Shown: positions 7,036-43,785 of the stretch, piece after piece
Position numbering within the stretch: the first letter of the stretch is position 1
How the letters are laid out: each line of letters opens with the position of its first letter
Origin: Folioceros fuciformis
Lineage: Eukaryota
Direction: 5' to 3'
Assembly (NCBI GenBank): GCA_049999805.1
Contig: JBNGIO010006317.1
Span: 127,315 to 191,314, forward strand
DNA length: 64,000 nt
The notes under the pieces: model-generated
Database searches by the model: none
The model's input: only the letters and a program-made list of their open reading frames with translations
Told to the model about the DNA's origin: nothing
Translations under genes and position numbers: made by a program

Positions 7036-7323
7036 CAAGCTCCTAATCACTCCAACATAAAGAAATGTTTCTGAATTTGTCAAGGCAGCTGAGCTGAGGT
7101 TTGATTCCTGCATTCTTCATTCCAGTGGACACAGTTTGTCACAGCAAGAGGTATAGGAATATCCGCAGAGCAGGATGCGGGCTCGACCAAAAACTATGGC
7201 GGGGATACTATGCAGAAGCCTACTTACGACTGCTGGAAAGTGCAACTCATATCCTCAAGCCGCCCATGTTCAGGAGAACACTATCGTCAGTCCATCTAGC
7301 AGTCTACACACTGCCGTGATCCA

Positions 7324-9289: not shown

Positions 9290-9295
9290 GGCCCA
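9290..9295. promoter_or_regulatory. Site II element (GGCCCA) upstream of RPS28
   Basis: GGCCCA about 190 bp upstream of the RPS28 ATG. Site II motifs are typical of plant ribosomal-protein promoters, but this is a single short motif. Confidence 0.35.
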
Positions 9296-9483
9296 TTGCT
9301 AAAGCGGCTGGCTGCTGCATCTTTTTGTGTGCGTCTTGCTCGCGCTGTAGTATCTGGTTGTCCTGGTGAGATCTTAGTTCCTGAAGATGGTTACAATCTC
9401 GAATTTTTTCTCTTTGCAGTGAATGGTTCTGATTCCGCGCGCTGTGGTTTGGATGTTGGGTGAATTGCAGCAATCTGTAAGCC

Positions 9484-9681
9484 ATGGATTCGTCTGTCAA
9501 GCTGGCGGTCGTGGTTAAGGTGATCGGGCGCACGGGTTCCAGGGGACAGGTCACCCAGGTGCGTGTGAAGTTTCTGGATGACCAGAACCGGCTGATCATG
9601 AGAAACGTGAAGGGGCCGGTCCGAGAAGGCGATATTCTGACTCTGCTTGAGTCGGAGAGGGAAGCAAGGAGGCTCCGGTGA
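9484..9681 (+). CDS. RPS28: 40S ribosomal protein S28 (eS28)
   Basis: [65 protein letters not shown]. Confidence 0.98.
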
Positions 9682-10649
9682 CGCGGGAGTGCCGGATGCG
9701 AAGACTAGGGTTTTGGTGCACTTGTCGGTGCGAGCGGCGATGATGCGATGGAGATGTAGTCCATGCAAGAATTGGTGATGGGATAGCTCAGCTCCGGAGC
9801 TGGATATGGTGGTTAGGGGTTTCATAGGGACGAACCGGGGTCGTTCTGCAACACTTTGATTCTTGTGTTATTTTTGTGGTTGCCTGGAAGGACAGTCAGA
9901 GGATTCGAGGAATGCGACTTTGCAGCCTTGTTGTCTATCTAAGGCCGGACGGTGTGGTACGCCTCATTCATTATCATTCGACGATGATTGGGTCTTCGGG
10001 TGTGTCCGAGTTTAGCGATTAGGGTTTGTTTCTTTTGAATCCCTTCAAGCACGTCCTTCTCTGAGGTACGCAACTAAGTGGAGTAGGTGGTGATCAGCAA
10101 CTATATGTCATGAAACAAGCGGTTGCATTTGTACTTGGCTGCGTTGAACGAGGCTGCGTTCGTTACCATCCTTTGTTTACCACTTCTTCTCGAGTCTACT
10201 AGGTGATCATGTGCGGACAGCCTTGTGTAGAAACATATCGAATTGCTGGAGCCTTCAACAGGAAGTGATGAAATAAAACACTCAACTGTATTGAATTACC
10301 CATGCGTACCTCATGAGGCTGTTTGTGGTCCATTGATTGAGGTGGCTATTCTGTACAACCTGGCTTCTTTATTGAATCAGTTGGAATGTACACAGTATGG
10401 AATGAATACCTTAAAGGCTTGTTAAACTAGTACGAAAGCGCAGCAGTGGTGTCTGGCTTCGCGTGTTATGTGACTCATCAGTATCTCAACCTCTCGTGAG
10501 AGGTCAGGTCGGATGGAACGGCAGGAGGTGCGATGGTGTCTTGCTTTGTCTCCTCAGGTTACGACATGTAGGTTGCAGCAACGAGCTTTCTTTGAAGCTC
10601 GCAACTGAACTCCACCTGCGGACAAGTACCAGAAGGTACCATGCCCTCG

Positions 10650-12467
10650 TCAGGTCCATTGAGCGACAAGTACTTTGAACCATTTGCCAGGGAAGACCTC
10701 TTGATCTACCACCCTCACTGTATCATTCACCTTCTCAAAGAGAGTAGCCAGGTCTTGGACACCAAGGGCAGTTAAATCTAGATGTCTTGAGAATTTTGCG
10801 TGATACACATCTAGAAAGCCAGGTACTAGGAGCTTTAAGTTATGGCTTACAAGAAGCTCTTGTAGCTCCATTTTGAAAAACTGAAGTCTAACGTTGAGAG
10901 CGTGCTCCTTCGCCCTCATCGCTACTAGCAACTGCTCTCCGTTCTCCACCTCGTAATTCACTCTCAGAGAACCTGAACCGAAGTCAGGCAGAGTAGGTTT
11001 CCTTGTCTGCGGTGCATCCCGTGCTGTGCCTTGAAAATCCTTCACGCCGCCCTCACTTGCTGCGCGCACATCCTCGGGCACACTTGCCATCCTGTCATCA
11101 AGATCTCTTACATTCCTATCTGCCGTATCTCGTGTATTCCCACCATCAACATCTCTTTCATTCCTATGATCAACATCTCCTGCACTCCTATCAACATCCC
11201 GTGCATTCCTATCACCATCTCTTGAAGACCTTTCATCCACATCTTTTGCTGCATTTGCTAAAGCGGCCCGAATCGGTTCTAAGTCCAGTTCTTCATTTAA
11301 CCCAGCATTCAGACACTCTGAACTAGCTTCAGATTCCAAGACTGTATTTCCTCGATCACTCGTGGTTCCGTCCTGATGCCGCCCCTTCACTCGATACACA
11401 GTTCTGCTCTGATGCCGCCCCTCCACTCGTACAACGTCCGACATCTTCCCCAGCAGGCCAGCCAGGCTAGCGCTGTTATAATCGTCCAGAAGCAGTTTTC
11501 TTCTGAAGACCTTCAAATAAGCCCCAGGGACGTTAGGAAATGCGAGCTTCCCACCATGCAGATCCAGAAGCTTTTGTAGTTCAACTTTCAGGACCTCAAT
11601 ATCTCCTGGCTCACTCTTGGCAGCAGAAGGTCCTGACTCTTGGCCTTCTTCCTGACTCGTAGTGGAAGAGACAAAATCACCCCCAGCGGTTGGTGTCTTC
11701 CTTCCGCACGGCACCAGCGGCTCAGCATCAACCAAGGAGACCGACGTCGTACAGGACCTCATGTCACTGACGGTGACTTCTGGACAGAAACCCGTTTCCG
11801 TCATGGTTACAGGATCCACATCCTCAGCAGCCTCATCGATCATGACTCCTATGTGCCTGCACCCGATTTTCACCTTCTCCTCTCGAGGGACATTCACAGG
11901 CAATGCAACAGGACGTCCTTTTGCAAGCATGGGCCAGGCAAAAACACACTCAGCCGCTTGGTTAAGGGGAGCTGGAAGGGATCCTAAGGGTGCGGCCACA
12001 AGCACCCGGTATCCCCTGTGCTTCAACTTGTGCAGCGCATGAGCAAAATCAGAATCCCCTGATATCAAGAGGATGGTTGCGGGAGGTGGGTTGTCCATAG
12101 CGAACAGGAACATATCAGACAGAATAGCCTTGTCAGCAGCATCCTTCCTCCCCGTCGGAACATCAATGAGATTCACACCAGTTCGCTGATATCCCTCTCT
12201 GTTCCTGTAGGACATGCGGGCAGTGTCACCATAAGCTGAGAACGTAGTCACAGGACCCAGTACAGACTGCAAGTGCAAGGCGTTCAAAATGTTCGTAGCC
12301 ACAACCCCAGGAAGCACATCACTCGGAACGCGACAATTTTCGATGTCCCACAGGATGGCCACTGGCTCTGCGAGCTCATGATGAGGTCGGGGCAGAGGTG
12401 TAGGAAACTGTTGGATCACTCGGGGCTCCATGGTGATCTGCCTGTAACGGGGCCCATGAAGTGCCAT
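10650..12467 (-). CDS. NYN-domain ribonuclease with two LOTUS/OST-HTH domains (MARF1/limkain-like)
   Basis: Intronless 605-aa ORF. NYN motifs AILWDIENC, FSAYGD, GRKDAADKAIL, LLISGDSDF. Two OST-HTH-like segments: ELQKLL...YLKVFRRKL...LAGLLGKM and ELQELL...YHAKFSRHLDL...LATLFEKV. Confidence 0.9.
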   Translation of the reverse strand: MALHGPRYRQITMEPRVIQQFPTPLPRPHHELAEPVAILWDIENCRVPSDVLPGVVATNILNALHLQSVLGPVTTFSAYGDTARMSYRNREGYQRTGVNLIDVPTGRKDAADKAILSDMFLFAMDNPPPATILLISGDSDFAHALHKLKHRGYRVLVAAPLGSLPAPLNQAAECVFAWPMLAKGRPVALPVNVPREEKVKIGCRHIGVMIDEAAEDVDPVTMTETGFCPEVTVSDMRSCTTSVSLVDAEPLVPCGRKTPTAGGDFVSSTTSQEEGQESGPSAAKSEPGDIEVLKVELQKLLDLHGGKLAFPNVPGAYLKVFRRKLLLDDYNSASLAGLLGKMSDVVRVEGRHQSRTVYRVKGRHQDGTTSDRGNTVLESEASSECLNAGLNEELDLEPIRAALANAAKDVDERSSRDGDRNARDVDRSAGDVDHRNERDVDGGNTRDTADRNVRDLDDRMASVPEDVRAASEGGVKDFQGTARDAPQTRKPTLPDFGSGSLRVNYEVENGEQLLVAMRAKEHALNVRLQFFKMELQELLVSHNLKLLVPGFLDVYHAKFSRHLDLTALGVQDLATLFEKVNDTVRVVDQEVFPGKWFKVLVAQWT

Positions 12468-13139
12468 GTCCTCTATAGCTAGAATTCAATACCTCAAGCT
12501 ATTTCCAAGAGCCCTGGCCCCTTAAAGCATCACGCGAAAAATATAACTCTGCTCTCCGCAAGGATACTTACACAATTCACAAGGAAGCAGCTCAGAATCA
12601 ACCACGTGGCTTGCAGGACACCCTATTTGCGACACCACCACAGCTGCATCAAGTTGCTCTTATCTCCAAATTTGCAGCCCTCCAGTCCAGAGAATTCCCC
12701 TGCACTGTCGCCGACACTACCACCCTCATTCACCTCCCGACACCGGGGCTGCGGAGTCAACTCGGAACATCCTGAAGGCAGCTCACAGGTCCCATTATAC
12801 CATCGCCCACCATCCCGTGGCTTCTACCAGGCTTCCTCTCCTCTCAATGCTACAGTCCACGATACGAGAGTGGAGATCGCTCCTGATGACACTGCACAGC
12901 CAGAATCCGAACCCCTGCGACTGTTGACGCGTCCCTTTGCCACAAGTGGCAGGTGAAACCAAGGACGCTTGACGAAATGCTCGTCTGTAAATCCAAAGCG
13001 TGGAGTACTGGATTTTTGAATGTTGAAAACCAAGGGGATTCCGATACTGTCACGCGATGCCCAGGGCCCGAGTGACAAGCCTACACCTGGGCACTCCTAC
13101 CTGCCTTTGAAAAAAGGCAGACTTCGCCCGTTGGCCGGG

Positions 13140-21216: not shown

Positions 21217-24200
21217 TCACGTGGGGAATGGACCAAACAGAGGGATAAGCATCAGCTCAAACCAAGCTCCAAAGCCAAAAGAGAGCATTATCATTTGCGC
21301 TAAGGCAAGAGCCCCAACAGTCACGAGCTGGTCTTCGAAATCCGACTTGCTCATGCTCCTTGCTTGCAACTCTTCCATCTAGGACGCAACAACATGACAG
21401 TGATTGAGGTTGCGATCCAAGAAGAGATTGCAAGGGAGGCCAGGTGAGCTGAGCTGACAAATGGATTCCAACCTCATGTGTTAAAACCTGGATCTTGGCC
21501 TCTTCCACCAACCTGCGGCTCTCCCCTTGGCTCAAGGGTTCCTCCAACTGAGACCCCGAGCCGGAGGATGCCATTCCCAGTGGACCGCCCTGCGACTGTT
21601 CCAGCATGCGCAAACATTCTTCCAACTCTTGTTGCATGTCCCGTTGTTTTACCAACTCGACCTCCAGCATTTCATACTGCTGGTTCAAGGATCTCATCAA
21701 CTCGTCATTGCCTACTGGGACAGGAGCAGGCGCGAGGGTAGCCTGCTGCTTCCTCACCACCTCTTGCAAGTCAGCGTACTTCTTCTGCAAGCTATGGTAT
21801 GACTCCAAGAGCTGGCCGAGCTTGTCCGGGTCGACTGCAAGCCCCTTCCCCTTCAAGTTGTCCCTTGCCATCCCCTCCTCCTCCTTGGTGGGTGAGAAGA
21901 GGTAATTGTCTATCACCCAGTTGTAGTCCTCAAAATCAACCTTGCTCGTGCTACCATCGGCCGTAGCTTCACCTGGTCTTGCACTTGCACTTAGGTCTTC
22001 CGACTCCCTCATTCTACTCCTCAAGTCGCTCATCTACAGGCATGGCATTTCATGGGTTTCAACCACAATCCATATCAAAACCTCCAAAGCCATCAACAGG
22101 GCATGATTCATGAATGATTCAAGCAACCACCACCCAAGCAACCAACCTCTTGCATTAATTTGCCAACTTCCAACTCGACTTCGGCTCTGCGGCCAACTTC
22201 CTGCTGCAATCGCCCCAGCAGGGACATGTTCTCCTGCGACAGCTGCTCCACGGCAGAGTCTAAACGAGACATACTACTCATTTGCAACTCCAACTGCTCA
22301 CGGAGGCCCCTCTCATGCTCCACCTGCTGTCTGTACATCTCTGCTTGCTCGGCGGCAGAGTCTGAACCAGACATGCTCCTCAATCGCAACTCTAGCTGCT
22401 CACGGAGGCCCCTCTCATGCTCTACCTGTTGTCTGTACATCTCTGCTTGCTCCGCGGCAGAGTCTGAACCAGACATGCTCCTCAATTGCAACCCCAACTG
22501 CTCACGGAGGCCCCTCTCATGCTCCACCTGCTGCCTATACATCTCTGCTTGCTCAGCAGCAGAGTCTGAACCAGACATGCTCCGTACTTGCGACTCCAAC
22601 TGTGCACGGAGGCCCCTCTGATGCTCTGCCTCTTGCTTGTAAACCTCGACCTGTTGTCTGTAAATCTCTGCCTGCTCCGCGGCTTTCATCTTCTCCTCGT
22701 AGTCCATCAGCTTCTTCTCCATTTCCTTCACTTTGGCCTCGTACTCTTTGAGGTCGGCATTGCCGCTTTGCAGTTTGTCCTGGTACTTGTCGATCTGCTG
22801 CTGAAGCTCCACTATCTTCCTGGAGGATTGCTCTGCATACCACTCCAAACCAGAGGGCTTCGTCGGAGCCCGCTTCTTCTCCTCCACAGCGGCAACAGCA
22901 GCTTTCTTCTCGCTCCCACTGCGTATACTTTGTTCCAACCACGACCTGTCACTCTGCATCTCACGCATTCTCTTCTCCTGATCTGTCAACAGGTCATCGC
23001 GCCCCTGCAATTCTTTCTCGTACTGCTGCATTCTCTTCTCTTGCCCCATCAATATCTGACCCCGATTCTGCAACTGCTGCTCGAACCCCTGGAGCTCTAG
23101 TTGCTTCTGTCGCAGCTTCGCCTTCTCTTGATGCAACTGCTTCTGCTCCTCTTCCAATTTTTCCTTCCGATCTTCCGAAACCTCATTCCTTTGAGCAGCC
23201 ACTTGCACGGATCGCCTCTCCAGCGCTGCAACCTGCGCTACCACATAATGTCATTCATCATCTCATGAATGACTCTTATGCCACCATGAATCTCCTCTGA
23301 ATCAGATGCTCGTGCCTTGTTGCGAGATGAGAAAAACTCTCATAGCACCATCTCCTGTGACATGCTTTTGCCTTCCTGGAAGCGCAAAGTCTGACACAGT
23401 TCCGGACCTGCTCTCTTAGCCTTTGAGCCTCGTCCTCAGCAGCACGGCGACGAGCCCTCTCCTGGCCTGCGACCGCCATCTGGTGGCTGACAACCTTCAA
23501 GACCTCCCGCTCCTCGGCCGATACAGGCTTAACCTGAATTGTCCTCTCCGGCTGAGGGCCTCCTTTCAGACCCGCCACAGCGAAGTACTGCGTACGGACG
23601 GCCATGTTCCTGCCCCGGTCCTCTGTCTTGATTATGGCGGGGAGCGTCACCAAGGACATGTCATTCTCGGAGCCTTCATCAATCCTGTAGCTTCTCCCAG
23701 CCGCGTCCGACTGACTACTCTCACCCGCCTCATCCTTCCCTTGAGCGGGGAAGTGGATGTCAGGCTTCTCGAATGCCACAGCCGGTCCTCCCCCCTCCTG
23801 GTCCTGGTCTGCTTCTTCCAGCTGGGGAAACATCCTCCCTTCCTTGAACTTCCCGAAGGCCCCTTCTAGGATCTTCTCCACCAGCTCCGGGGGCGCATCC
23901 TTGGGGAACTCTGTCTCAACCTCTGTGCTGTACACCGTGGCCTCCACAGTAGAGCCCGGTGTGAGCTTGTCCAGTAGAGGCTGAATCAGGGCTTCCGCAA
24001 TGGGACCCTGCTTCCTGGGGCTGGCAGCTGCCCCGTTCCAGGCCCCCTCTGGACTACCTAACTGCATCGCTTCCGCGCTCTTGCTTCTGCTCCTCGCCTT
24101 GGTCGGAGAGTCCGATCCGGACGGCGAGAGCGGTCCGCTTGCCGGCCCCTTCCCCCGAGACCAGAATGCCCAGTTCCAAGGCGGCCGGCTCTCCACCATC

Positions 24201-24934
24201 TGTTTTGACTCTGCAGATCCTCGTCGAGAAGACGACTCCGTGGGTGATCCATTCCCGCCTGAGCCGCGCCGCGACGGCGGGCCGAGGGCGGCCGCTGGAA
24301 GTTCCAACCGTGGGATCTCTTCCACTCCGCGAGATTCTCGACTCTGTGGCGACCCGGAAGAGGCTGGGGACAGAAGCGCCAACCTCCCTACCTTCATCGG
24401 ACCGGCGCTTTGGTTTCTTGCCCTGATCCGTTTCTGTCTAGCGGAAGTGCTATTCGTTGCTGCAGTTGGCGGCGCCCTGTCCCTTGGTGGTGACACTGAT
24501 CTCTCACGCCACTCCGCATAGCTTGGATCTTCCTTCCTCACCTGTCTGCCCAGGGGTTGCCTTGAGGTGATCGGAGACCCTGATCTGTCACGTCTCACGC
24601 TCTTCTCCCCAACAAAAGATTTCTGTGGCACACCGGGGGCGGCGATGGGATACGGAGCAGCTGCTTCCTCGAAGGGAGCTGCAAGTGCAGCCTCTTCATT
24701 TGCTGCAGGGGCGCCTACTTCCTCCCTGACGTTTTTCCATCTTTCCCTAGGTGGAGACCGTGATCTATCACGGCCCGGAGAACTGCTGCTCCTCATTTTG
24801 GGTGACAAATCGGATGCTGGTCTAGACACCTTGCTGAACTTGTCTTTTGAACGTGTCCTCATTGCAGACAACTCAGCCACCTTCTTGCCCCTCTCATTAC
24901 TTCTGTCAGGCTTGGGGATGAACTCGCTGGCCAT
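21217..24934 (-). CDS. Large coiled-coil tail-anchored protein, candidate plant KASH (WIP-like), about 1110 aa, 4 exons
   Basis: Exons 24934-23408, 23232-22147, 22033-21473 and 21378-21217 join in phase 0 at GT-AG sites. S/R/P-rich disordered N-half, then long E/Q/K coiled coils. Last exon: MEELQARSMSKSDFEDQLVTVGALALAQMIMLSFGFGAWFELMLIPLFGPFPT*. The start codon is uncertain. Confidence 0.75.
22251..22640 (-). repeat. 102-bp (34-aa) coding tandem repeat, 3 copies plus partial
   Basis: SMSGSDSAAEQAEMYRQQVEHERGLREQLxLxLR units; cggcagagtc recurs at 22251, 22353 and 22455. Confidence 0.92.
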
Positions 24935-25149
24935 GGGTGCATCGTGGGCACCTGATTCCGAAGGTTGGATATCCCATCTTCTTCCTTGGATTCTGACTCT
25001 TACGGGTTGCAGCCATACACCTGCATCACCTCCCACAACGGGAAACTGGAGACATGAAATCTTGTTCACCACCTGGCATTAAGCTTGCTGCTTTCTCCCC
25101 ACCACCATACAACAAAGTGTACATGTCTTCATTCCAAATCTCTGCTAGT

Positions 25150-27150
25150 AGCTTGAGCCATACTTGAGCTACGGGGAGCACCATGGAAAGAAGGCCCCAA
25201 CCTCATCCACAGTTCAATGCGGTTCAAGGAATTCAGGCATCCACAACCTGATGCTGAGGGCCTTGGAGAACATTAATCCTTTACAGTGCTGACAACAACA
25301 ATTCAGTTGATTGACATCCATGTGACTGATAATGGTTGAGCCTCCTCCGCATTGAGCAGTCTCATCACCTTTCTCTCCAAACAAACTTGTGCATTCTCAA
25401 TCATAAATTCGAATCGTATTCAACATATTGAAAGCCAATATCACAAAACAATGTTTCTCTAAACTTCTCCTCCCAACTATCATTATTCATTTATAGATAT
25501 TGCGATTCTTTTTTCTTTTTCTTAATTTTTAGACGCATCCCATTCTTATGAAAACTTTGTCTACTTCCCTTATGGGTTCAAAATATTATTTTATAACTAA
25601 TATAAAATATACTCTTTTTTCAAAACCTTGATCTCAAATCTTGTATTGACACAATAATCTCAATTTTTGTCCATAGAAGAAATAAAATCTTATTTATTCA
25701 TTAAACAATCTTGAATTTTTGTACCACATGAAAATTTGATTGATTCTTTGTATCTTTGGTAACTTTTACTTAGAATCTTTCTTAGTCCCTCTAGATCTCA
25801 AATATTTTTTTATCTATTTTAGAAAAACAACATGAAAAAACTCATCTACACATAGAAAGAAGACCGTAAAACATCATGCTCTCTCAATACTTTGCAATCC
25901 TTTTCCATATCTCTTAGCATTTTTAATGATTTGAGTGAGAAATAGAAGTCACTTGTGAACTAAGCACAGAGAATGTAGAAAAGGTTTCTAATGACATTTT
26001 TTTAATAAGCACAAGTATCTAGATTAAGAAAAAAAAAATGAAGGAAAGAAGGAAGAAAGAAAGATAGAAATCCACACTCTCAACTAGTTTATCTTAGAAA
26101 ATAATATATTATTTTTATTTTTATTTTATCATTTTTATCTATTTATTTTTATAAATTCAATCACGTACCATCTTCTCTTCCAAATCGCAAATACAAGTGG
26201 GTAATATAAGAAGATCTCATTTTTCATAGGAAGATCATTTTTATTTAATACCCTTTGTATATGCCAATCTCTCATTGTATCAAATTAGAATAAAAAATAT
26301 CATAAACATAAGTGAATTTTTGTTCTCATCTTCTTTCCCTTCTATTTTCAACTTGTATTTTTTTATCTATTTTTATTTTTTAATCTAAAATAAATAATTA
26401 TGTTTTATAACAGTCTNNNNNNNNNNNNNNNNNNNNNNNNNNNNNNNNNNNNNNNNNNNNNNNNNNNNNNNNNNNNNNNNNNNNNNNNNNNNNNNNNNNN
26501 NNNNNNNNNNNNNNNNATAACAGTCTTCAATAGATCCCTTCATTGATACAGGGACCTTCATACATTTTTTTCAATCATATCTTTTATCTTTGTCTTTGTT
26601 GTAATTCCAATATCACATGAAGATTTATTTCATGCTTTCATGCTTAACTCTAGTTTGAAAACCATTTTAATAGAGGTGGTCCAACAAATAAACAAAGATG
26701 GTCGAAATATAGAATGTGACAACATCTTTGCTCATTACATGAAATCCTCATTCTCATCTAATCTAATTTAAATATAGAGAAATAAAAGAGAAAATAATTA
26801 ATACAAGTAAATATAAATATTTAGAGGTAAAAATATATATATATTTATTCTATCAAAATTTACCTTCTTCTTTTCATTTCTATTCACTCATCTATGTTTA
26901 GTATATAGAGATCCTTGTTCGAATTAAATTATTTAATATAGTTATATTTCCAACATCTCATCCGTGCTTAAAAGGTCTGGTTCACAATAACCAGGTATTT
27001 CACCTCACGAAGTATGTACAAGTCAAAAATCAATCCCATTGATATACAGTTTAACATATTTAAGATTGAAATCTTAATTTAATTAAAAAAAACCTCTTAT
27101 GTTTATATTATTTAAAAGTCATTTCGTCTATGACATAAACGACTAGCACG
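25150..27150 (-). mobile_element. AT-rich, highly decayed retroelement-like relic (possible LINE ORF2 remnants)
   Basis: Sharp drop in GC and no ORFs. Minus-strand scraps such as LPKIQRINQIFMW and RYLCL weakly resemble LINE RT C-terminal motifs. Confidence 0.3.
26417..26516. other. Assembly gap (100 N)
   Basis: Run of N, with ataacagtct on both sides. Confidence 0.99.
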
Positions 27151-27393
27151 TTACCCAAAGCTTGGAAGAGGACTACTGTCGGCAGGCTTGCCGGGAATGC
27201 TGATGTTCATGTGGTGCCGATGTAGGAGCTGGATTGGAGAGGTGGCATGCCTGTCCATGCACCTTCGAATTACCTACAGGCCCGTCTGGCGGGGTCTCAC
27301 AATTTGGTAGCTTGCAGAATGCGTGGGCATGCATGATACCGGGGCCACTCTGCCATCGTCTTTTAGACACAACCCGACCTCGGTCCCTGAACG

Positions 27394-30300
27394 ATGGCCA
27401 CAGTATGGCAACTGGACCCGTTCTGTGTCCAGCAAATTGGTGCGTCTCCAGGGATTATTCCACGAGGAGCTGCTGCTCACCTGATGGTAGGGAGCCAGCC
27501 CCTGGCGAAGAATGCCTTCAGGTGCAGCAGTGCGAGGAGCTCGGCAGCTCCGCTTCCAGGAAGATCTGTACATGGGGACGGGATTTTAAGTGATGGTCGT
27601 TGCCAGGAGCAGGAGCAATTGTGGGAACGATTTTTTATGGAACCGACCATGTGGTGGGACAACAGACGAGATAAGAGGAGCTCCCGTTCGCCTGACTTCC
27701 GGCGTAAGGGGTCCGGTGAGGTCCTGTGGTTGAACAGCATGTTCAAGCCAGCTTGGGTTGATGAGCAGCTCGTTTCCTTGGATACGCAGATGGGTCGCGG
27801 TGGCTCTCTTTCCGAGTCCAGCGCTACGGACAAGCCTGGATCTGGGGGGTGTGGAGGGTTGGGAATGGGCGTCGTAACGGATGCAACCGTGAGCATGTTG
27901 TGTCAGCAGGGGGAGCTCTCTGAGGCTGTTGGAGCCCTGGAATCTCTGGTGCAGACAGATTCTGCGGTTTCTCAGTCTCTGCTTTACACTGTGTTGAAGC
28001 TGTGTACAGCTAAGAGGGATCTGGCTGCGGGACGACGAGTTCATCGTCTCACTGCCAAACTGGGGTTCGAGTCGAGCGCGTACTTGGGGAACCATATCTT
28101 GCGCATGTATTCATCTGGAGGTAGGCTGCAGGAGGCCATGGATGTGTTCACCAAGGTGGAAAAACCAAATGTGTTCATGTGGTTTTCCATAATCTCTGCC
28201 CATGCTAAGCACGGGAAACCTAAGGAGGCCATACAGCTGTACCATGACATGCGTAGGTCAGGAGTGAAGGCGAATGGTCACGTCTTTGTGGCTGCCCTGC
28301 AGGCTTGCGCAGGTGCTGCCGACTTGGAATCTGGGAGAGAAGTGCACTGTGATGTGTTGCACAGTGGCACTCCCACTGACTTGTTTGTTGGCAACGGCCT
28401 GGTGGTCATGTATGTAAAATGTGGTGAGATGAAAGATGCTCGCCAGGTTTTCGAGAGCATGGCCTCGAAGGATGTGGTGACATGGACGGCGCTGGTATCT
28501 GGTTATGCAAAACGTGGTGAACTTGAAGATGCTCGCCAGGTTTTCGACAGCATGAGCACGAAGAATGTTGTGACATGGACTGCGCTGATAGCTGGGTACG
28601 CCGAGCTAGGGCTCGAACAGGAGGCGCTTGTTTTGTATGGACAAATGGAGCAGGAGGGCCTCGTTTTGGCTGACCGTGTTGCTTTTGCTTGCCTTCTGAA
28701 GTGCTGTGGAGGCGCCGGTGCCTTACAGAAGGGCAGGCAGTTGCACTCACAGATAGTCGAAAGAGGGCTGCTGGATGACGTAGTGGTTGGCAACTGCCTG
28801 GTGGACATGTATGCCAAATGTGGCGAACTGGAAGATGCACGCCAGGTTTTTGACAGCATGAACACGAGGGACGTGGTGACGTGGACCGCCCTGATATCCG
28901 GGTATGCACATCAGGGACTCGGTCGAGAAGCACTTGCTGTGTATGATGAAATGGAGGAGGAGGACGTTATTGTGGCTAACCATGTTACTTTTGCTTGCCT
29001 TCTGAAGGCCTGTGGAAGCGCAGGTGCCTTACAGAAGGGCAGGCAGCTACACTCACTGATTGCCAAACGAGGGTTGCTGGATAACGTAGTGGTGGGCACC
29101 TGCCTGGTGGACATGTATGTAAAATTTGGTGAACTGGATGACGCACGCCAGGTGTTTAACAGCTTGGCCACAAAGAATGTGGTGACATGGACTGCGTTGA
29201 TTGCTGGGTATGCACAGCAAGGACTTGGCCAAGAGGCGCTTGTTGTGTATGGGCAAATGGAGGAGGCGGGCCTCATTTTGGCTGACCAGGTTACGTTTGC
29301 TTGCCTTCTGAAGGCCTGTGGAAGCACTGGTGCCTTACAGAAGGGCAGGCAGCTGCACTCACAGATTGTCAGAAGAGGACTGCTGGATGATATAGTGCTG
29401 GGCAACTGCTTGGTGGACATGTATGCAAAATGTGGCGAACTGAAAGATGCACTCCAGATTTTTGACGGCATGAGCACGAAGGATGTGGTGACATGGACCG
29501 CCCTGATATCTGGGCATGGCAGCTGTGATGAGGGTCACAAGGCACTTACTTGTTTTGAGGAGATGTTAGTTGCCGGTATTCAGCCAAATGATGCTACTTT
29601 TACTTGTCTTTTAGTAGCATGCAGTCATGAGGGACTGGTTGAGGAGGGTCGCAACCTCTTTGATTCTATGGGCGAACAGCATGGCACCAGACCTACTGTT
29701 GAGCATTACACTTGCATGATTGATCTGCTTGGGCGCGCTGGCCACTTAGATGAGGCAAAGGACATGCTGTTATCATGTGAGGGCCAAAGTAATGTTGTAG
29801 GGTTGACATCTTTGTTGACTGCCTGCCAAAGTCACGGGGATCTAGAAAGGGCAATCTGGTGTTTTGAAAGCATTGTTAAGCTTGACCCCCAGGAGGGACC
29901 CGCCTATGTGCTCATGGCCAATGCCTATGCAGACGCAGGCAGGTGGGCCGATGTAGACAGAATTGAAACACAGAGAAGGGCAGCAGGAGCTAACAAGAAA
30001 CCTGCACTGGCGACCATTGAGGTGAACAAAGAGGTACAGAGATTTCTGGTGGGAGAAAGGAGAGACGATATTGCGCTGAAGGTGGAGAGCACAAATGCTC
30101 GTCTGAAGCAGGAAGGAGGCCACGTACCTCACACAAAGTTGGTATTGAAGCCACTATGTGAGAAGGAGAAGGAAGATCTCCTTTGTGGGCATGCTGAGAA
30201 GCTAGCTCTGGCGTATGGTCTCTTGAACACTCCGAGTGGCACACCTCTGATGGTAACCAAAAATCTCCGCATGTGCAGTGACTGCCACAGCTCCACGGAG

Positions 30301-30399
30301 ATCATGTCAAGGCTTGAACAAAGAGACATTGTTGTAAGGGATGGGTACCGTGTGCATCGATTTGCAGCTGGGTGTTGCAGTTGTAAGGGTCGGCCGTGA
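27394..30399 (+). CDS. PLS-class PPR-E1-E2-DYW:KP protein (GRP-ending), candidate organellar U-to-C editing factor, with N-terminal PDF motif
   Basis: Intronless 1001-aa ORF: transit-peptide-like N-terminus, about 18 P/L/S motifs, E1/E2, then KKPALATIEV...HAEKLA...KNLRMCSDCH...HRF...CSCKGRP*. Confidence 0.95.
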   Translation: MATVWQLDPFCVQQIGASPGIIPRGAAAHLMVGSQPLAKNAFRCSSARSSAAPLPGRSVHGDGILSDGRCQEQEQLWERFFMEPTMWWDNRRDKRSSRSPDFRRKGSGEVLWLNSMFKPAWVDEQLVSLDTQMGRGGSLSESSATDKPGSGGCGGLGMGVVTDATVSMLCQQGELSEAVGALESLVQTDSAVSQSLLYTVLKLCTAKRDLAAGRRVHRLTAKLGFESSAYLGNHILRMYSSGGRLQEAMDVFTKVEKPNVFMWFSIISAHAKHGKPKEAIQLYHDMRRSGVKANGHVFVAALQACAGAADLESGREVHCDVLHSGTPTDLFVGNGLVVMYVKCGEMKDARQVFESMASKDVVTWTALVSGYAKRGELEDARQVFDSMSTKNVVTWTALIAGYAELGLEQEALVLYGQMEQEGLVLADRVAFACLLKCCGGAGALQKGRQLHSQIVERGLLDDVVVGNCLVDMYAKCGELEDARQVFDSMNTRDVVTWTALISGYAHQGLGREALAVYDEMEEEDVIVANHVTFACLLKACGSAGALQKGRQLHSLIAKRGLLDNVVVGTCLVDMYVKFGELDDARQVFNSLATKNVVTWTALIAGYAQQGLGQEALVVYGQMEEAGLILADQVTFACLLKACGSTGALQKGRQLHSQIVRRGLLDDIVLGNCLVDMYAKCGELKDALQIFDGMSTKDVVTWTALISGHGSCDEGHKALTCFEEMLVAGIQPNDATFTCLLVACSHEGLVEEGRNLFDSMGEQHGTRPTVEHYTCMIDLLGRAGHLDEAKDMLLSCEGQSNVVGLTSLLTACQSHGDLERAIWCFESIVKLDPQEGPAYVLMANAYADAGRWADVDRIETQRRAAGANKKPALATIEVNKEVQRFLVGERRDDIALKVESTNARLKQEGGHVPHTKLVLKPLCEKEKEDLLCGHAEKLALAYGLLNTPSGTPLMVTKNLRMCSDCHSSTEIMSRLEQRDIVVRDGYRVHRFAAGCCSCKGRP

Positions 30400-32783
30400 G
30401 AATTTAGATAAGCAGCCTGTGCTCAAGTGTGTAGACTAGACACATTGCTTTGCTGCGGGGGTCAACATACTTTTTTAACCCCACACCTGTCCGAACTGAG
30501 ACATGGACATGGGTGACTCATACTGGACTTGGCATCCAGAATCAGAAGCGAGCGGCGCATCGAACTTGGGGCGACTGCCCCTTCTGGATGCACTCACAAT
30601 CTCGCCGGGTCACGGAAATCAGGAATCCGGGGTGCAAGCCTGGAATTTGGCTCATCCGGTGAATTGCAAGGCTCTGCAATTGCCACCTTAAGAACCCAGT
30701 GCTTTCAAAGGGCTTCACAAAGGCAAGTAAATGTAATGTGGTCAGGCAAACATGAGACCCTCCTCTTCCCTCCGTCCATACACAACAATCCCCTGGGGCC
30801 CAGTCCTTGCTGTGCACAGGGGCAACTGCTGTGGACAGGAGCCGGATCAGAGCATCACTCGGAGTTCAGGCCGGTTAGTTAGGTTGCCCTGAGATGCCTC
30901 CTGTTCTGATGCTAGCAGTGACTGGAACTCGAGATTTTAAATTTCAAAAACTGCGTGCCCCGTCTCTGAACATGAGGAGCAGCACATCAAACAATCTCTT
31001 GAGGCTGTAGAAGGACTGTCCCGACTTCTCCTCTAACCGTTTACTGTCCACGGGTCAGCCTCATTCAAAATGGTAGGACAGGTGATAAAGCCCACATGCC
31101 GTCCAAAATCTTGGTCGTGCAGAATGACTGCGTCTCAATCTCCGAAGCCATGAATGCTTTCACTCGTGTTAAAGCCTACGTGGCATGCCGTCCCCCATCC
31201 ATCCAAAGAACTTCATACGCCTAAGGCTAACCAGCACACATACGCTTTTGCCGCGATGCATTGTGCCATAACCCTCAGCGCGGTTGGCCTCCCTCTTCCC
31301 CGATCTCTCTTCCTCTCCTCCCGCCCTCGTTGAGATTTCGATTTCTTCACTCCGCTGCCGTGCATTTGATGGGGGAGGATTACTCAGATACATTTGTTTG
31401 CATCTTCGCTTCCATTGAAGGCAGAATTGTACACATTCAGATCAGGTTTCAAACTCCTCTGCAGATGCCAATCGTAACCCACATTTCCTATCATGTACAT
31501 ATATCGTCTCAGATCAGGCAATGGTGCGCGGGCTGGTAGTGAGTCCTGCCAGCCTCGTTCAAACGATGGAGCTTTCTCAATTGAAACGTAAATCCACTAC
31601 TCCCTGCCAACCGTGCTTCAGCCAAGTTTGGCCTGCGAAAGCAAGCGTGCTGCATTCCATGGACTGCAGAGGACTGACGTGGAGGGACGACCAGACGCGG
31701 GTGGGATCGTGTATGCTTCGTTCAGCCCGTCCGGTCCTATTGCCCTGCGGCGCTGACGCTGATAACGCAACGCCGTAAAAACCGTATGTGAGCTGATTGA
31801 GAGAATGTGAGCTGATTGAGCCGTCGGAGATCGAGAAACAGGCGTGCAGACTGGAGCACGTCCGTGGTGCATTAAATTCGCTTCTGTGGCACCTCTGGTG
31901 GTCCCCATGTTCCTTTTCGGAGGCATAAAGGCAACAGGAGCAGAAGCAGAGTACCGAGGCGATTTCTAAATTACGTAGGAAGTAGGACCGCCTTCATCGG
32001 GTGGGACAAAACCACGCACTTGGAAGCAAAAGCAAGAGTGATAATTAAACACTAGCCCGCCCTCCAGCCCTCCGCTCTCTTTGGGGTGCTTCGGGTTCTA
32101 TTATTGCCAACACCTTTTTGTTTTTTATTTGGTCAGAGTACTATATTCCATTCTGTAGTACTCACCCCCGGTTGCCACAATGGAGAGTCCGTGCGTCTTC
32201 ATAGCCCTTCTGAGGACGCTATGGAGACAGAAATCCATCGAATACTTGCCCGTTCACAGCCGAAGCTTGCAAGGGCCACACCATTCGCAAGAATTTGCGA
32301 CTTCTGATGCCACCCCAGATTCCATTCCTGACCCCAGGAAAGCTGCAAAACCTGGACATCATGTTGCCAAGGAATGGTAGATGGGGGAGCACGTCTCTTC
32401 GCTGTCATGCCATGTGTCCACCTGGGTCTCTTCCACCCAGCCATATTTTAGGCATCTTAGTGAATCTGGAGGTTCAGGAGTTTGTTGTCGCTGGAAATGG
32501 TTGTTCTTTTCCGGGGAGACAATGTATTGGACGCCCTTGAGGGACCCATTAGTCGTACCGATCGAGTACGGAACACAGTCTCTCTCTAGACAGACTGTCC
32601 CATCAGAAACTCGTCTCTCAGAAGCATCGTCGTGTGTGAGTGCTGCAAAAATGTGATTGCATGGTTCCGGGAATCCGAGTGGTGTGCAAGCTTGCATCAC
32701 ACACTCTTGAAGCATGAGGACTTTTTATGAGGTGGGAATAAAGAATAAATGCAGTATCCGACGACGTGCTGCGATTGCTACTG

Positions 32784-40809: not shown

Positions 40810-43785
40810 ATGATGGACAAAAGACCAAAGCAAGTAGTGTTCAAGTCGCCTGACACAGGTGAGGATGAGCTCCGGAAGACATCGACTTCGAAGAGGACTA
40901 AGAAAGACCGTAAACTTGGGGTACCCCTCTTCAGCCTCCGCTTCTCAAAACGCTCCGATGTTTGCAGGTCGCCGCATCCTTACAGCCCAGGAGTGTGGTC
41001 CACTACTACCCCTGGCAGTTCGACTGGATCAGTTGAGATGAACAAGGGCGAGGCCGTACTCACGGTAGACAGAGATCCGGAGGCGGTGGAAGAGCCTGTT
41101 GATGAGACAGATTTGGATGAAGATGAGGATTTCAAGTGGTATGGGCGAAAGGATAAGCTGGCTCCGGAAACTGCAATCACACTGTTTGCTCTCAGATTGG
41201 CGGCTCTGGAGAAGACAGCCAGCAATCTAGGGACCCTTGCATTTTTGTGGGCGACTGTCGTGTTGTTGGGTGGGTTTGCTACCACTGCCAAATCCATTGA
41301 TTTCTGGGTTGTCGCGGTGTTGCTCTTCACCGAAGGGATAAGGATATTTGCCAGAAGCCATGAGCTGGAGTGGCAGCATGTCGCATCCAAGGCCACGAAG
41401 GCGTTTACCGAAAGGGCCAAAAGGGCGACCACCACCGTATACAAGGTGCTGTGGTCCTGGAATTGATTCCCTACATGCTTGGCAGTAGCAGACTGTTTCC
41501 TTTGTTTAGGATGGATAACGATGACTGACAGCTCCCGTGACATGCAGGTTGGATCTGATGTTATGCAGAGGAGCTCACAAATGGTGAGGACGGTTCTGCA
41601 TTCTCTTGTTTACAAGCCTGAGAATGCCGAGCATGGCGTGGATCATGCAGTACTTGAAGGGGATGGCCTTGAGTTGGGACCAATCCCAACACCGCAGAAA
41701 ATTGATCAGAGAAAAATCCCGAAATTAAAACATGAAGATAGGACCATCAGCACCCTGAAGCAGGCTGCAGCGGCACCTAGTGGGAATCCGGGGTTGATGA
41801 AGCGAACATGGTCCAGCACACTTGTTCCTTTCATACCTTTCTCCCGGCTGACCCTCTTTTCTGCTCAAGCAATCAGTCTCTATCTCTACTGGATGCAGAT
41901 ATGTTCAGCAATCTCGAGTGTTGGCTTGTCGAGTTGGCGACTGTACCACCATGACTTCATTGACCCGTCCTCTGATCTCGGGAAAGCTGCCAACAATCTT
42001 ATTCTTGCGCTGGACCTGTTCTACGGCTTGGCCCTTGCTGAGGCTGCCGTCTTCCTTTTGGAAAGGTTCTACTGGGAGGTGAAGCTCACCCACGAACAGT
42101 TGATCGTGAAGGTGAGCAAGGACTACAAGTTGCAGAACAAGGAGATGCAAGACGTGGTCAAGGCTTTCTTCTACGAGGTTTACAGCAAGAGCTTAGAAGG
42201 GAGCTTGTTCACAGGGCTAGACATGGACCTGGTAGCGTATTCCATCGATCTCATCCAGAAAGATTCCCCCAAGGACCAGCTAGCAGGCTCCCAGCTGCTC
42301 AAAGCATTGCTCGACGATAAAAGCTCTGCCGAAGACACCCTCCGTCGTCTCGGCTCCACACCCAGGGTGTTTGAGCGGCTTGTGGAAATGCTGTCATGGC
42401 ATAATCAGCACGAGGAGCAGATCCGTATCTCAGCTGCTGAGATTGTGCACAAACTGGTGCTCTTCAGCCGTAACACATTCCGCATTGCCAGCATAGCTGG
42501 TGCTCTGGAGAGCATAGTGTCCCTGCTGGGTGTTTCGGAGTTGACGGGACTGGAGAACATGGACACCACGGATGATGCCACCACGCTCCGGCTCTCAGGG
42601 CTGCGCATCTTGAAATACTTGGCCCGTGATTACAACAACAGGGCCAGAATCGGGGCCACCAGGAGCTTGCTTCCTATCCTCGTGTCCTTCACGCACGTCA
42701 AGACGAAGCCTGAATTAGATCTCCAGGTATCTGAAGTACCTGCTGGCAAGGTGTTTAAGAAATCGTTGCAAATTCTGAGCATGCTGGCATCCACTCCGGG
42801 TACTACAGGGACCCAGCTGCGGGCATCCATCATCCACGTGATCTTCGCTGTGCGGAACATCAGGGACATTCTACAATATGGGTCGCGCAATCTCCCAATG
42901 CAGGCGTGTGCTGTGGACCTCCTTATCAACTTGGCTATGGACGATGACATCAAGGTGCGGGAAAGCCTGGGCGGCACGGGAGGTTTGATACGCCATCTTA
43001 TTGCGCTCCTGCTGTTCAAAAAGACCTTGCAACCAGAAGAGACAATGCTGCAGGAGCAACTCCGGCTAGCCGAGAAGGCAGGAAAGTCGCTCAACCTGCT
43101 TGCTCTGCAAAACGAGAAAAACTGCCGCAGAATGATCCAGCTGCGGGATCTGGAAACAGGGCAGAAAATCCCGACTCTGCAATACTTGATGGAGCTGGTG
43201 CCAGACGTCGAGCTCGGGGCCACATCCGCCAACATACTGCGCTCCTTCTGCGTGTATGCGAATCCGGAAGACAAGGCACAGCTGACAACCATCATCCCTG
43301 CTGCCTTCGTCATTGTCATGACGAAGGACGGGAAACACCAGGAATCCGCACTAGGCCTGGCTGCTCAGGCTCTTTCATATACCGTGGCCACCGGAGAATA
43401 CGGTGCTGCAGAGCTGGACAGAGTCTTCTCAAAGATCGAAGTGGACAAGCACATGTTCGTCCACAAGCTTATGACACTCATCCCGTCCAAGACTTCTCGG
43501 CCAAGGCTGAGGCGTCATGCCGTGGAGCTCATGAACGCTCTCATGGATGCGGATCCATGTTTTGTGCACAAGTTCCGGGAAGCTGACCTAGAGAAGAAGC
43601 TGCATTTCTTGCTGGAGACGATATGGGACATCGAAAACTACTACACTTTCTCCGGCCATGTAGGGCTCACACGCCACCAGCAGGACATGGAAGACTTGGT
43701 CCGTAGCGCCCAAGATAGACTGCTTCCATTTCAATCTCCAGGAGCTGCCTCACCGATGTCAGGACTGCAGCGATCCATGTCCTGA
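40810..43785 (+). CDS. BLE2-like protein: N-terminal transmembrane segments plus ARM-repeat region (2 exons)
   Basis: ALRLAALEKTASNLGTLAFLWATVVLLGGF...DFW...TEGIRIFARSHELEWQH and LDLFYGLALAEAAVFLLE, followed by a long ARM-like helical region. Intron about 41446-41547. Confidence 0.8.

What the first reader, a model, noticed from the sequence alone, without database searches (positions are those of the whole stretch)
27613..27771. OSB-type 'PDF' nucleic-acid-binding motif fused in front of the PPR array of a putative U-to-C editing factor
Seen: between the presumptive transit peptide and the first PPR lies EQLWERFFMEPTMWWDNRRDKRSSRSPDFRRKGSGEVLWLNSMFKPAWVDEQL. Known: this matches the roughly 50-aa PDF motif (LW..F...P..WWDNR..K.....PDF..K..GE.LW.....P.WV) of organellar single-stranded DNA-binding proteins of the OSB family, and it is not a standard part of PLS-PPR editing factors. 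Inference: an accessory ssDNA/ssRNA-binding module that could tether the editor to nucleoids or nascent transcripts, or supply in cis a helper function. I cannot tell whether this fusion has already been reported.
Basis: partly seen in the sequence, partly recalled or inferred. Interest (0 to 1): 0.8.

Follow-up and report, generated by a model that had tools for sequence, protein, structure and literature searches.

The report
OSB-type PDF motif on PPR editor
A plant RNA-editing protein of the U-to-C type carries, ahead of its RNA-reading repeats, a small module otherwise known as the DNA-gripping part of organelle genome-maintenance proteins, and the same combination recurs unreported in other seedless plants.

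Summary
Confirmed. Window 27394-30399 (+) is one intronless 1001-codon ORF. It reads: presequence, PDF motif (residues 72-134; the finding's 74-126 lie inside), Gly/Ser linker, PLS PPR array, E motif, then a 133-residue DYW:KP domain ending GRP.

- **Homology.** An exhaustive phmmer search gave 638 hits. Of the best 150, 32 have an SSB/OB domain followed by PDF copies, which is the OSB architecture; one of the 30 hits looked up by name is called OSB1-like. An HMM built only from those OSB motifs scores the window at 78.9 bits (E 1e-17 for 1.8e9 proteins).
- **Fold.** AlphaFold gives a confident small fold (pLDDT 92.7) with no PDB counterpart.
- **Distribution.** The fusion is not unique. 10 of the 150 hits (ferns, lycophytes, two unnamed) and 8 ORFs on metagenome plant contigs are PDF + PLS-PPR proteins. 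None of them has a DYW domain, so no link to DYW:KP is shown.
- **Copy number.** In contig sets of three related organisms, dozens of distinct contigs cover the PDF region at 85% identity or more. The motif is therefore family-wide in this lineage.
- **Literature.** No searchable paper links the PDF motif to PPR proteins, but three key papers were not held.
- **Function.** Untested. The likeliest role is a non-specific single-strand anchor.

The parts
27394..30399 (+). Intronless ORF of 1001 codons plus stop: PDF-PLS-E-DYW:KP(GRP) protein
   Evidence: ORF list and translation. An in-frame TGA sits directly upstream of the ATG. Pfam finds PPR, E_motif and DYW_deaminase.
27394..27606 (+). Residues 1-71: presumptive organelle presequence (inferred)
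   Evidence: Composition is 10 A, 8 S, 8 G, 5 R, 1 K, 3 D, 0 E. No Pfam family matches. Poorly conserved presequences of about 40-140 residues also precede the PDF in other PDF-PPR proteins. No targeting predictor was available.
27607..27795 (+). Residues 72-134: PDF motif (the finding's 27613-27771 = residues 74-126 lie inside)
   Evidence: OSB-only HMM scores 78.9 bits, E 1e-17. phmmer gave 638 hits. All 10 invariant columns are kept. The AF2 model has pLDDT 92.7: helix, two short strands, helix.
27796..27870 (+). Residues 135-159: Gly/Ser-rich linker
   Evidence: Seen in the sequence itself. No family hit.
27871..29832 (+). Residues about 160-813: PLS-class PPR array (boundaries approximate)
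   Evidence: Pfam PPR E 2e-95 with 12 stretches; PPR_2 and PPR_1 also match.
28504..29518 (+). 306-nt tandem repeat, 3.3 copies, 80% matches: recently duplicated P-L-S triplets inside the array
   Evidence: Tandem Repeats Finder.
29833..30021 (+). Residues 814-876: E motif (E1/E2)
   Evidence: Pfam PF20431, E 3e-13.
29998..30396 (+). Residues 869-1001: 133-residue DYW:KP deaminase-like domain of the GRP subgroup. It has the KP pair, H65-A66-E67, K88, M92, C93..C96, E101 and G131-R132-P133.
   Evidence: Pfam DYW_deaminase E 4.5e-33 over residues 909-999. Family hallmarks come from passages of PMC9478123 and PMC11845758.

Best explanation
The gene encodes a nuclear organelle-targeted RNA-editing factor of the hornwort-type DYW:KP 'GRP' subgroup, a putative U-to-C editor. 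Behind its presequence it carries one genuine PDF motif, homologous to the ssDNA-binding module of OSB proteins.

The motif is an independently folded unit of about 60 residues (helix, two short strands, helix). It is rich in invariant Trp/Phe and basic residues, and a flexible Gly/Ser linker of about 25 residues ties it to the first PPR.

Most likely mechanism (inferred): the PDF unit is a sequence-unspecific single-strand anchor. It holds the editor on exposed single-stranded nucleic acid at the organelle nucleoid, either ssDNA of transcribed or replicating DNA or the nascent RNA 5' of the PPR footprint. That raises local concentration and on-rate. The PPR array then supplies site specificity and the C-terminal DYW:KP domain does the chemistry.

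Shown here: homology, fold confidence, architecture, recurrence in other seedless plants and in many paralogues.
Inferred: targeting, retention in the mature protein, binding, and any effect on editing.
Odds: identity as a PDF motif at least 0.95; the anchor mechanism about 0.45.
For: **Homology**
- phmmer gave 638 hits at E<=1e-3.
- 32 of the best 150 carry Pfam SSB N-terminal to the matching copies, which is the OSB architecture.
- P0085 is named 'OSB1, mitochondrial-like' (E 6.6e-15, 51% identity).
- The OSB-only HMM scores 78.9 bits, E 1e-17.
- 10 of 10 invariant columns are kept.

**Fold**
- The AF2 model has pLDDT 92.7 and pTM 0.77.

**Known activity of the motif**
- Review passages say the PDF motif of AtOSB1 is sufficient for ssDNA binding (PMC6963530).
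- OSB1 and OSB2 prefer ssDNA over dsDNA or RNA (PMC4166229).

**Recurrence of the fusion**
- 10 of the 150 hits have N-terminal PDF (1-3 copies) plus PPR. They are named from Adiantum, Ceratopteris, Pteridium, Diphasiastrum and Selaginella.
- 8 of the 10 metagenome ORFs scanned are PDF + PLS-PPR.

**Family-wide in this lineage**
- At 85% identity or more, place 27677 is covered by 55, 61, 71 and 24 distinct contigs in runs X3, X1, X12 and X13, which carry three organism labels.
- Summed depth over 27586-27716 is 3893 in the probable DNA run X1, against 7.1 for the unique flank 27062-27323 and 38 for the presequence bin. The tool warns that summed depth is not a copy number.

**Editor identity**
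-, checked against passages. Designer GRP-type proteins KP2 and KP3 edited U to C at 26% and 22% in E. coli (PMC9478123).
Against: - No binding, localisation or editing data exist for this or any PDF-PPR protein.
- Reported OSB PDF activity favours ssDNA over RNA, so a direct role on RNA is not implied.
- The 18 other PDF-PPR proteins seen (10 library hits, 8 metagenome ORFs) lack a deaminase domain. The module therefore need not serve editing chemistry.
- Designer GRP editors work without it, so it is not essential for catalysis.
- The fold has no solved counterpart to support a nucleic-acid-binding surface. Foldseek's best E is 8.3 and VIA's best Z is 4.1.
- The OSB HMM seeds were collected with the window's motif as query, which biases them towards it. 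The library-wide E-values do not depend on that.
- The contigs laid are short, so they cannot show that each PDF copy continues into a PPR array.
Confidence: 0.5

Rival explanations
1. The PDF unit acts in cis on the RNA substrate itself. Sitting N-terminal of the array, it clamps the RNA 5' of the PPR footprint and raises affinity or keeps the strand unfolded. There is no link to DNA or nucleoids.
For: - The motif sits at the N-terminus, on the 5' side of a PPR-bound RNA; this polarity is established PPR knowledge, recalled.
- In one subtype the motif abuts the first PPR directly, with no linker (L025, L023, L008, L034, P0147).
- Other PPR proteins carry N-terminal RNA-binding domains, for example the RRM in maize PPR4 (PMC9459714 passage).
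Against: - Recombinant OSB1 and OSB2 are reported to prefer ssDNA over RNA (PMC4166229 passage).
- In the window protein a flexible linker of about 25 residues separates the motif from the array.
- No data on RNA binding by any PDF motif were found in the 5 papers that hold the term.
Confidence: 0.28
2. The PDF unit is a protein-protein or oligomerisation module. It could dock onto OSB or other nucleoid proteins, or pair editors, rather than bind nucleic acid.
For: - AtOSB2 is reported to be a tetramer (PMC6963530 passage).
- PDF copies occur in tandem arrays of up to 13 and in varied contexts, as adaptor modules often do.
Against: - The only activity reported for the motif is ssDNA binding.
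- The invariant residues are aromatic and basic, which is typical of single-strand binders.
- No partner is known, and no complex prediction was run.
Confidence: 0.1
3. The motif is an inert relic, is removed with the presequence, or the gene copy is not expressed. In that case it has no role in the mature protein.
For: - The motif lies close to the N-terminus.
- GRP-type proteins are said to be under-represented in transcriptomes (PMC9478123 passage).
Against: - The 1001-codon ORF is intact.
- All 10 invariant positions are kept and the fold is confident.
- The motif is kept across many paralogue contigs while the preceding presequence bin is not.
- The same order, presequence then PDF then PPR, is seen in ferns, lycophytes and other plant contigs.
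Confidence: 0.1
4. Chance resemblance, or an artefact that joins two genes.
For: None beyond the shortness of the motif and the lack of a Pfam model for it.
Against: - E 1e-17 against an OSB-only profile at library size, and 186 hits at E<=1e-10.
- There is one uninterrupted frame from the ATG to the GRP end.
- A 290-nt contig identical to the window spans 27383-27672 in two runs (records 2 and 25).
- Independent annotated proteins have the same architecture.
Confidence: 0.01

Closest known systems
OSB proteins (Arabidopsis OSB1-4 and relatives): organellar ssDNA-binding proteins with an OB/SSB-like domain plus 1-5 C-terminal PDF motifs
   Same: The same roughly 50-60-residue PDF motif: 78.9 bits against a profile of 52 OSB copies, with all invariant W/P/D/F/R/K positions kept. 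Both are nuclear-encoded and presumably organellar.
   Different: - The window protein has no OB/SSB domain.
- Its motif is N-terminal, single, and followed by a PPR array and a deaminase-like domain.
- OSBs act on DNA recombination (PMC13393729 passages), whereas this protein is built as an RNA editor.
- PPR-linked copies share a local signature (LWLNS..KP.WVD) that differs from the OSB consensus.
Hornwort DYW:KP proteins of the GRP subgroup and the designer editors KP2/KP3 based on them (PMC9478123)
   Same: A PLS array, E1/E2 and a 133-residue DYW:KP domain with the KP pair, HAE, Lys88, Met92, Glu at the position of PG Lys103, and a C-terminal GRP (passages).
   Different: In the passages read, the published descriptions and designs begin at the PLS array. 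No N-terminal PDF module is mentioned there. The original descriptions (Gerke 2020, Gutmann 2020) were not held, so I cannot say they are silent on it.
Unannotated PDF-PLS-E proteins of ferns and lycophytes (e.g. Adiantum KAI5076972.1, Ceratopteris KAH7415342.1, Diphasiastrum KAJ7570437.1, Selaginella XP_024517303.1)
   Same: N-terminal PDF motif(s) followed by a PLS PPR array; 48-62% identity to the window's motif.
   Different: - They end in or just after the E motif, with no DYW domain.
- Some have 2-3 PDF copies.
- The databases call them only 'hypothetical' or 'PPR-containing' proteins.
PPR proteins with other accessory nucleic-acid domains (RRM in PPR4, SMR, NYN, LAGLIDADG, CBS, SAP)
   Same: A PPR array combined with a second small domain that acts on nucleic acid (PMC9459714 passages).
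   Different: Those are P-class proteins with unrelated domains. PDF is absent from that list, and here it sits on a PLS-class editor.

Membership tests
PDF motif (OSB-type module) | A motif of about 50 residues with a conserved Pro-Asp-Phe signature | tested here: met
   P100-D101-F102 are present. P35 and F37 of the 69-residue segment are invariant and D36 is at least 90% conserved in 34 sequences. Definition taken from a PMC6963530 passage.
PDF motif (OSB-type module) | Significant profile match to PDF copies taken from proteins with the OSB architecture | tested here: met
   HMM of 52 copies from 32 SSB-bearing proteins: 78.9 bits, E 1e-17 at Z = 1.8e9. The hit named OSB1-like scores E 6.6e-15.
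PDF motif (OSB-type module) | Binds single-stranded DNA | not testable with these tools
   Known only for Arabidopsis OSB1 and OSB2, from review passages.
OSB protein family | A central OB/SSB-like domain N-terminal of the PDF motif(s) | tested here: not met
   Pfam finds no SSB/OB domain in the 1001-residue protein, and nothing in residues 1-189. The motif is followed by PPR repeats. The protein shares a module with OSBs but is not an OSB protein.
PLS-class PPR editing factor | Tandem PPR repeats followed by E motifs | tested here: met
   PF01535 E 2e-95 with 12 stretches; PF20431 E_motif E 3e-13 at residues 814-876.
DYW deaminase domain | DYW_deaminase fold with an HxE...CxxC zinc site | tested here: met
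   PF14432 E 4.5e-33 at residues 909-999. H933-A-E935 and C961-S-D-C964 are present.
DYW:KP subclass | A Lys-Pro pair in place of the PG box at the start of the domain; a domain of 132-133 residues; Ala in HxE; Lys88 | tested here: met
   K869-P870; 133 residues to the C-terminus; HAE; K at domain position 88. Criteria come from passages of PMC11845758 and PMC9478123.
DYW:KP, hornwort GRP subgroup | C-terminal triplet Gly-Arg-Pro; Glu at the position of PG Lys103 | tested here: met
   The protein ends ...CKGRP, and domain position 101 is E. Criteria come from PMC9478123 passages. The alignment of position 101 to PG 103 is my own count, not a tool alignment.
DYW:KP subclass | Catalyses U-to-C editing at a site specified by the PPR array | not testable with these tools
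   Shown only for designer proteins. No organelle genome or editome of this organism was at hand.

The most novel reading that the evidence does not exclude
The PDF motif is not an oddity of one gene. It is the standard N-terminal module of a large hornwort family of GRP-type U-to-C editors (dozens to hundreds of paralogues) and of an old PDF-PLS clade that reaches ferns, lycophytes and probably mosses. Through it, RNA editors are anchored to single-stranded DNA or nascent RNA at the nucleoid, so that editing in these hyper-editing plants is coupled to transcription. Adding the module would markedly raise the low efficiency of designer GRP editors.
Probability: 0.25. Interest if true: 0.75.

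Novelty: new variant of a known kind. Interest (0 to 1): 0.6.

Why it matters
PPR editing factors are described as presequence, PPR array, E motifs and DYW domain. A conserved accessory module that elsewhere binds ssDNA would add a new working part.

It would give a concrete hypothesis for how thousands of editing events are organised in hornwort, fern and lycophyte organelles: anchoring at nucleoids or on nascent transcripts.

There is also a practical side. U-to-C designer editors built from GRP-type consensus sequences work at only about 22-26% in E. coli (PMC9478123), and they were designed from the PLS array onwards. The natural N-terminal module is an obvious element to test.

For OSB biology, the result shows that the PDF motif is a mobile module used outside the OSB family.

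Tried and rejected
**Searches that gave nothing**
- Pfam has no model for the motif: 0 families for residues 1-189 and for the 53-mer at E<=1.
- The search for homologous proteins was used 3 of 3 times (53-mer 'longer', region 60-180, residues 1-200). It gave 0 hits each time, although phmmer finds hundreds. I read this as insensitivity of the word index, not absence.
- The ESM Atlas gave a best score of 0.84 (Phage_gp49 clusters), below the tool's 0.9 line. Rejected as chance.
- Fold searches of the confident model found no PDB match: Foldseek best E 8.3; VIA-align over 48,161 chains gave a best Z of 4.1 and none at 5 or above. This shows neither a new fold nor a function.
- No whole genome is held for the window, so paralogues could not be collected. 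The proposed KP-versus-PG enrichment test could not be run in the organism itself.
- The scan's notebook returned nothing in three look-ups.

**Expression**
- No RNA holder is listed. All four runs laid are contigs, and three are only guessed to be RNA.
- In X3 the stretch 26800-27323 has no cover, while 27383-27672 and 30363-30700 are covered by contigs identical to the window. This cannot prove a transcript start or expression.

**Tree**
- A tree of 147 PDF copies (63 columns) is unresolved: 85 of 144 branches are open.
- PPR-linked copies need 8 changes against a shuffled mean of 13.6 (0 of 500 shuffles as low). A single origin is neither shown nor excluded.
- Copies scoring under 40 bits were left out of that tree.

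**Literature**
- 'PDF motif' occurs in 5 papers; 3 concern OSB and none concern PPR.
- 'PDF domain' plus 'pentatricopeptide' gave 0 papers.
- The 2026 OSB family paper has 0 occurrences of PPR or pentatricopeptide.
- Zaegel 2006, Gerke 2020 and Gutmann 2020 are not held, and bioRxiv and PDF supplements are closed. A prior mention there cannot be excluded.

**Not done**
- No complex prediction, second structure job or PPR-code target prediction was run.
Full report
**What is there**

Translation of 27613-27771 (+) gives the quoted 53 residues. They are residues 74-126 of a single uninterrupted ORF, 27394-30399, of 1001 codons. An in-frame TGA lies directly before the ATG.

Pfam finds these features in the protein:
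- PPR repeats, E 2e-95, 12 stretches.
- An E motif at residues 814-876.
- A DYW_deaminase domain at residues 909-999, E 4.5e-33.
- Nothing in residues 1-189.

The window is eukaryotic nuclear DNA. It has 51% G+C and neighbouring multi-exon-looking genes: NYN-LOTUS, GST-hemerythrin and EF-hand. No whole genome is held for it.

**Is the motif real?**

I ran an exhaustive phmmer search of residues 66-134 against 1.84 billion representative proteins. It gave 638 hits at E<=1e-3, 186 at E<=1e-10 and 19 at E<=1e-30. Only the best 150 were listed, and these were the ones I classified with Pfam.

- 32 of 150 carry an SSB domain N-terminal of one to four matching copies. This is the published OSB architecture (PMC6963530 and PMC4166229 passages).
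- 10 of 150 carry PPR repeats.
- 1 of 150 carries a kinesin motor.
- 107 of 150 have no family at E<=1e-5.

I looked up the names of 30 of these hits. One SSB-bearing hit, P0085, is called 'OSB1, mitochondrial-like protein' (E 6.6e-15, 51% identity). An isoform of another is called 'Single-stranded DNA-binding protein'.

A profile built only from 52 motif copies of the 32 SSB-bearing proteins scores window residues 72-134 at 78.9 bits. That is E 1e-17 with the search space set to the whole library. It hits 1 of 937 window ORFs. The seed copies were collected with the window's motif as query, which biases the profile towards it. The library-wide phmmer E-values do not suffer from this.

In an alignment with 33 single-motif homologues, the window shares all 10 invariant columns: W77, P84, W88, D89, R91, K94, P100, F102, L111 and W121. 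It also shares 7 of 8 near-invariant columns.

AlphaFold2 on that alignment gives a confident small domain with pLDDT 92.7. It has a helix at 2-17, strands at 22-24 and 37-39, and a helix at 56-68 of the segment. Neither Foldseek (best E 8.3) nor VIA-align (best Z 4.1) finds a solved counterpart. The fold therefore adds no functional evidence.

**What the host protein is**

Counting from the Lys-Pro pair at 869-870, the C-terminal domain has 133 residues. It carries His65-Ala66-Glu67, Lys88, Met92, Cys93..Cys96 and Glu101, and it ends Gly-Arg-Pro.

Passages I read give these criteria:
[quoted passage not shown] Lys88 is essential for U-to-C editing.
- PMC9478123 says the HxE residue is a conserved alanine in KP proteins.
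- The same paper says hornworts have two KP subgroups, named DRH and GRP after their last three residues.
- It says GRP proteins have Glu where PG domains have Lys103.
- It reports that designer GRP proteins KP2 and KP3 edit U to C at about 26% and 22% in E. coli.

By sequence, the window protein is a GRP-type DYW:KP protein. From that I infer that the window comes from a hornwort nuclear genome. Its own activity and target are untested.

**Anatomy around the motif**

Residues 1-71 have the composition of a plant organelle presequence: 10 Ala, 8 Ser, 5 Arg, 0 Glu. This is an inference, because no predictor was available. The motif is followed by a Gly/Ser-rich linker (residues 135-159) and then the first PPR-like helix pair. 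Inside the array, a 306-nt unit is repeated 3.3 times at 80% identity. These are recently duplicated P-L-S triplets.

**The fusion is not unique**

The 10 PPR-bearing hits have the motif at their N-terminus. Seven have one copy, P0062 and P0122 have two, and P0005 has three.

Eight of the ten have named sources:
- Ferns: Adiantum capillus-veneris (two proteins), Ceratopteris richardii (two genes) and Pteridium aquilinum.
- Lycophytes: Diphasiastrum complanatum (two) and Selaginella moellendorffii.

The other two come from unnamed assemblies.

None of the ten has a DYW domain at E<=1e-5. Nor do 6 longer isoforms at E<=1e-3; five of these end with a Pfam E-motif match. By eye, the C-termini of the others also end in or just after E1/E2.

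A pattern scan of metagenome contigs found 145 stretches that encode a relative of the motif, and 80 were kept. I picked the ten longest ORFs with a motif. Eight are intronless PDF + PLS-PPR ORFs, 3 of them with an E motif and 0 with DYW. Two are SSB + PDF. Some of the eight are near-duplicates, such as L007/L009 and L008/L076. I did not scan the remaining loci with Pfam.

Two junction types appear:
- In one, the motif ends LWLN(S/N)..KP.WVD and a linker follows. This type includes the window, fern proteins, P0005 and P0125.
- In the other, the motif runs straight into the first PPR (..WV..ELAAM.PGTVQ..FSWN..).

A tree of 147 copies is unresolved. PPR-linked copies cluster more than shuffled labels: 8 changes against a mean of 13.6, with 0 of 500 shuffles as low. 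The window's five nearest rows are three PPR-linked copies and two presequence+PDF fragments.

On this evidence the proposed link to DYW:KP is not supported. The window protein is the only PDF-PPR seen here with any DYW domain. The organism's own paralogues could not be examined.

**Family-wide in this lineage**

I laid the contig sets of four public runs, carrying three coded organism labels, on 26800-30700 at 85% identity or more. The motif region proved to be multi-copy. At place 27677 the commoner alternative letter is carried by 55 (X3), 61 (X1), 71 (X12) and 24 (X13) distinct contigs.

In the probable DNA run X1, summed depth by stretch is:

| Stretch | Region | Summed depth |
|---|---|---|
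| 27586-27716 | PDF motif | 3893 |
| 27717-27847 | PDF end and linker | 2622 |
| 27062-27323 | unique upstream flank | 7.1 |
| 27455-27585 | presequence | 38 |
| 29813-30336 | DYW bins | about 4000-9900 |

The tool warns that summed depth is no copy number and that the contigs are short. I take from this only that dozens of distinct PDF-encoding sequences close to this one exist in each organism. The depth stays elevated through the linker and into the array, though it falls about four-fold from the motif bin (3893) to the bin with the linker's end and the first PPR (1066).

One X12 contig 'goes back 183' bases within the motif region. That hints at a paralogue with two tandem copies (tables 5 and 5c).

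**Mechanism**

Review passages state two relevant facts. The PDF motif of AtOSB1 suffices for ssDNA binding, while its OB fold seems to have lost that ability (PMC6963530; PMC6451138). OSB1 and OSB2 prefer ssDNA to dsDNA or RNA (PMC4166229).

The invariant residues here are aromatic and basic. I therefore commit to a sequence-unspecific single-strand anchor that holds the editor at the nucleoid or on nascent RNA (about 0.45).

The rivals are:
- A cis RNA clamp 5' of the PPR footprint (about 0.28).
- A protein-protein module (about 0.1).
- An inert or removed relic (about 0.1).
- Chance or artefact (about 0.01).

None of this is shown. Designer GRP editors work without the module, so it is not needed for catalysis.

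**Novelty**

In the searchable library, 'PDF motif' occurs in 5 papers. Three concern OSB and none concern PPR (the PPR mentions in PMC6963530 concern RNA polymerase). 'PDF domain' with 'pentatricopeptide' gives 0 papers. The 2026 survey of 182 OSB genes never mentions PPR. The Physcomitrium PPR overview lists RRM, LAGLIDADG, SMR, NYN, CBS and SAP as extra domains, and not PDF.

Zaegel 2006, Gerke 2020 and Gutmann 2020 were not held. Their supplements, and those of bioRxiv, could not be seen. A prior mention is therefore possible.

I rate the finding a new variant of a known kind: a known editor class with an unreported, recurrent accessory module. Interest is 0.6.

Noticed in passing
window 28504-29518 (+): A 306-nt unit is repeated 3.3 times at 80% identity inside the PPR array; a 93-nt period also occurs at 28411-28595. 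These are recently duplicated P-L-S triplets, so the RNA-reading code of this editor contains near-identical blocks.
   Followed up: partly
proteins P0007, P0012 (hits): Proteins with 7-9 tandem PDF-like copies occur in dinoflagellates (Effrenium voratum CAJ1451737.1; a Cladocopium protein), with E 1e-50 and 6e-44. [quoted passage not shown] The motif family may therefore reach beyond Viridiplantae.
   Followed up: no
protein P0119: A complete OSB architecture (SSB at 54-148 plus two PDF copies) occurs in a transcript of the chlorophyte genus Pyramimonas. The 2026 OSB survey places the origin of OSB genes after the split from Chlamydomonas.
   Followed up: no
proteins P0003, P0055: A Kingdonia uniflora protein of 1160 residues has 13 PDF stretches and no Pfam family. 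A Coptis chinensis gene model joins PDF copies to a kinesin motor, which may be a gene-model fusion.
   Followed up: no
protein P0005 (unnamed assembly): The hit with the best-scoring single PDF copy (75 bits; 56% identity over its copies) has three tandem N-terminal PDF copies (24-91, 139-205, 219-286). These precede a long PLS array that ends at E1, mirroring the 1-3 copies of OSBs.
   Followed up: partly
window 27324-27454 versus 27455-27585: The bin holding the 5' leader and the first 20 codons has a summed contig depth of 640 in run X1, while the next bin (the rest of the presequence) has 38 and the unique flank 7. A subset of paralogues seems to share the start region but not the middle of the presequence.
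   Followed up: no
window 10653-12485 (-), 57476-58525 (-), 880-1770 (-): The long ORFs nearby are ordinary nuclear genes or exons: NYN + OST-HTH/LOTUS, GST + hemerythrin, and a four-EF-hand protein. The ORFs at 41467-43782 (+) and 23279-25078 (-) have no Pfam family.
   Followed up: partly
window (whole): The window holds 100 N, and its G+C content is 51%.
   Followed up: no
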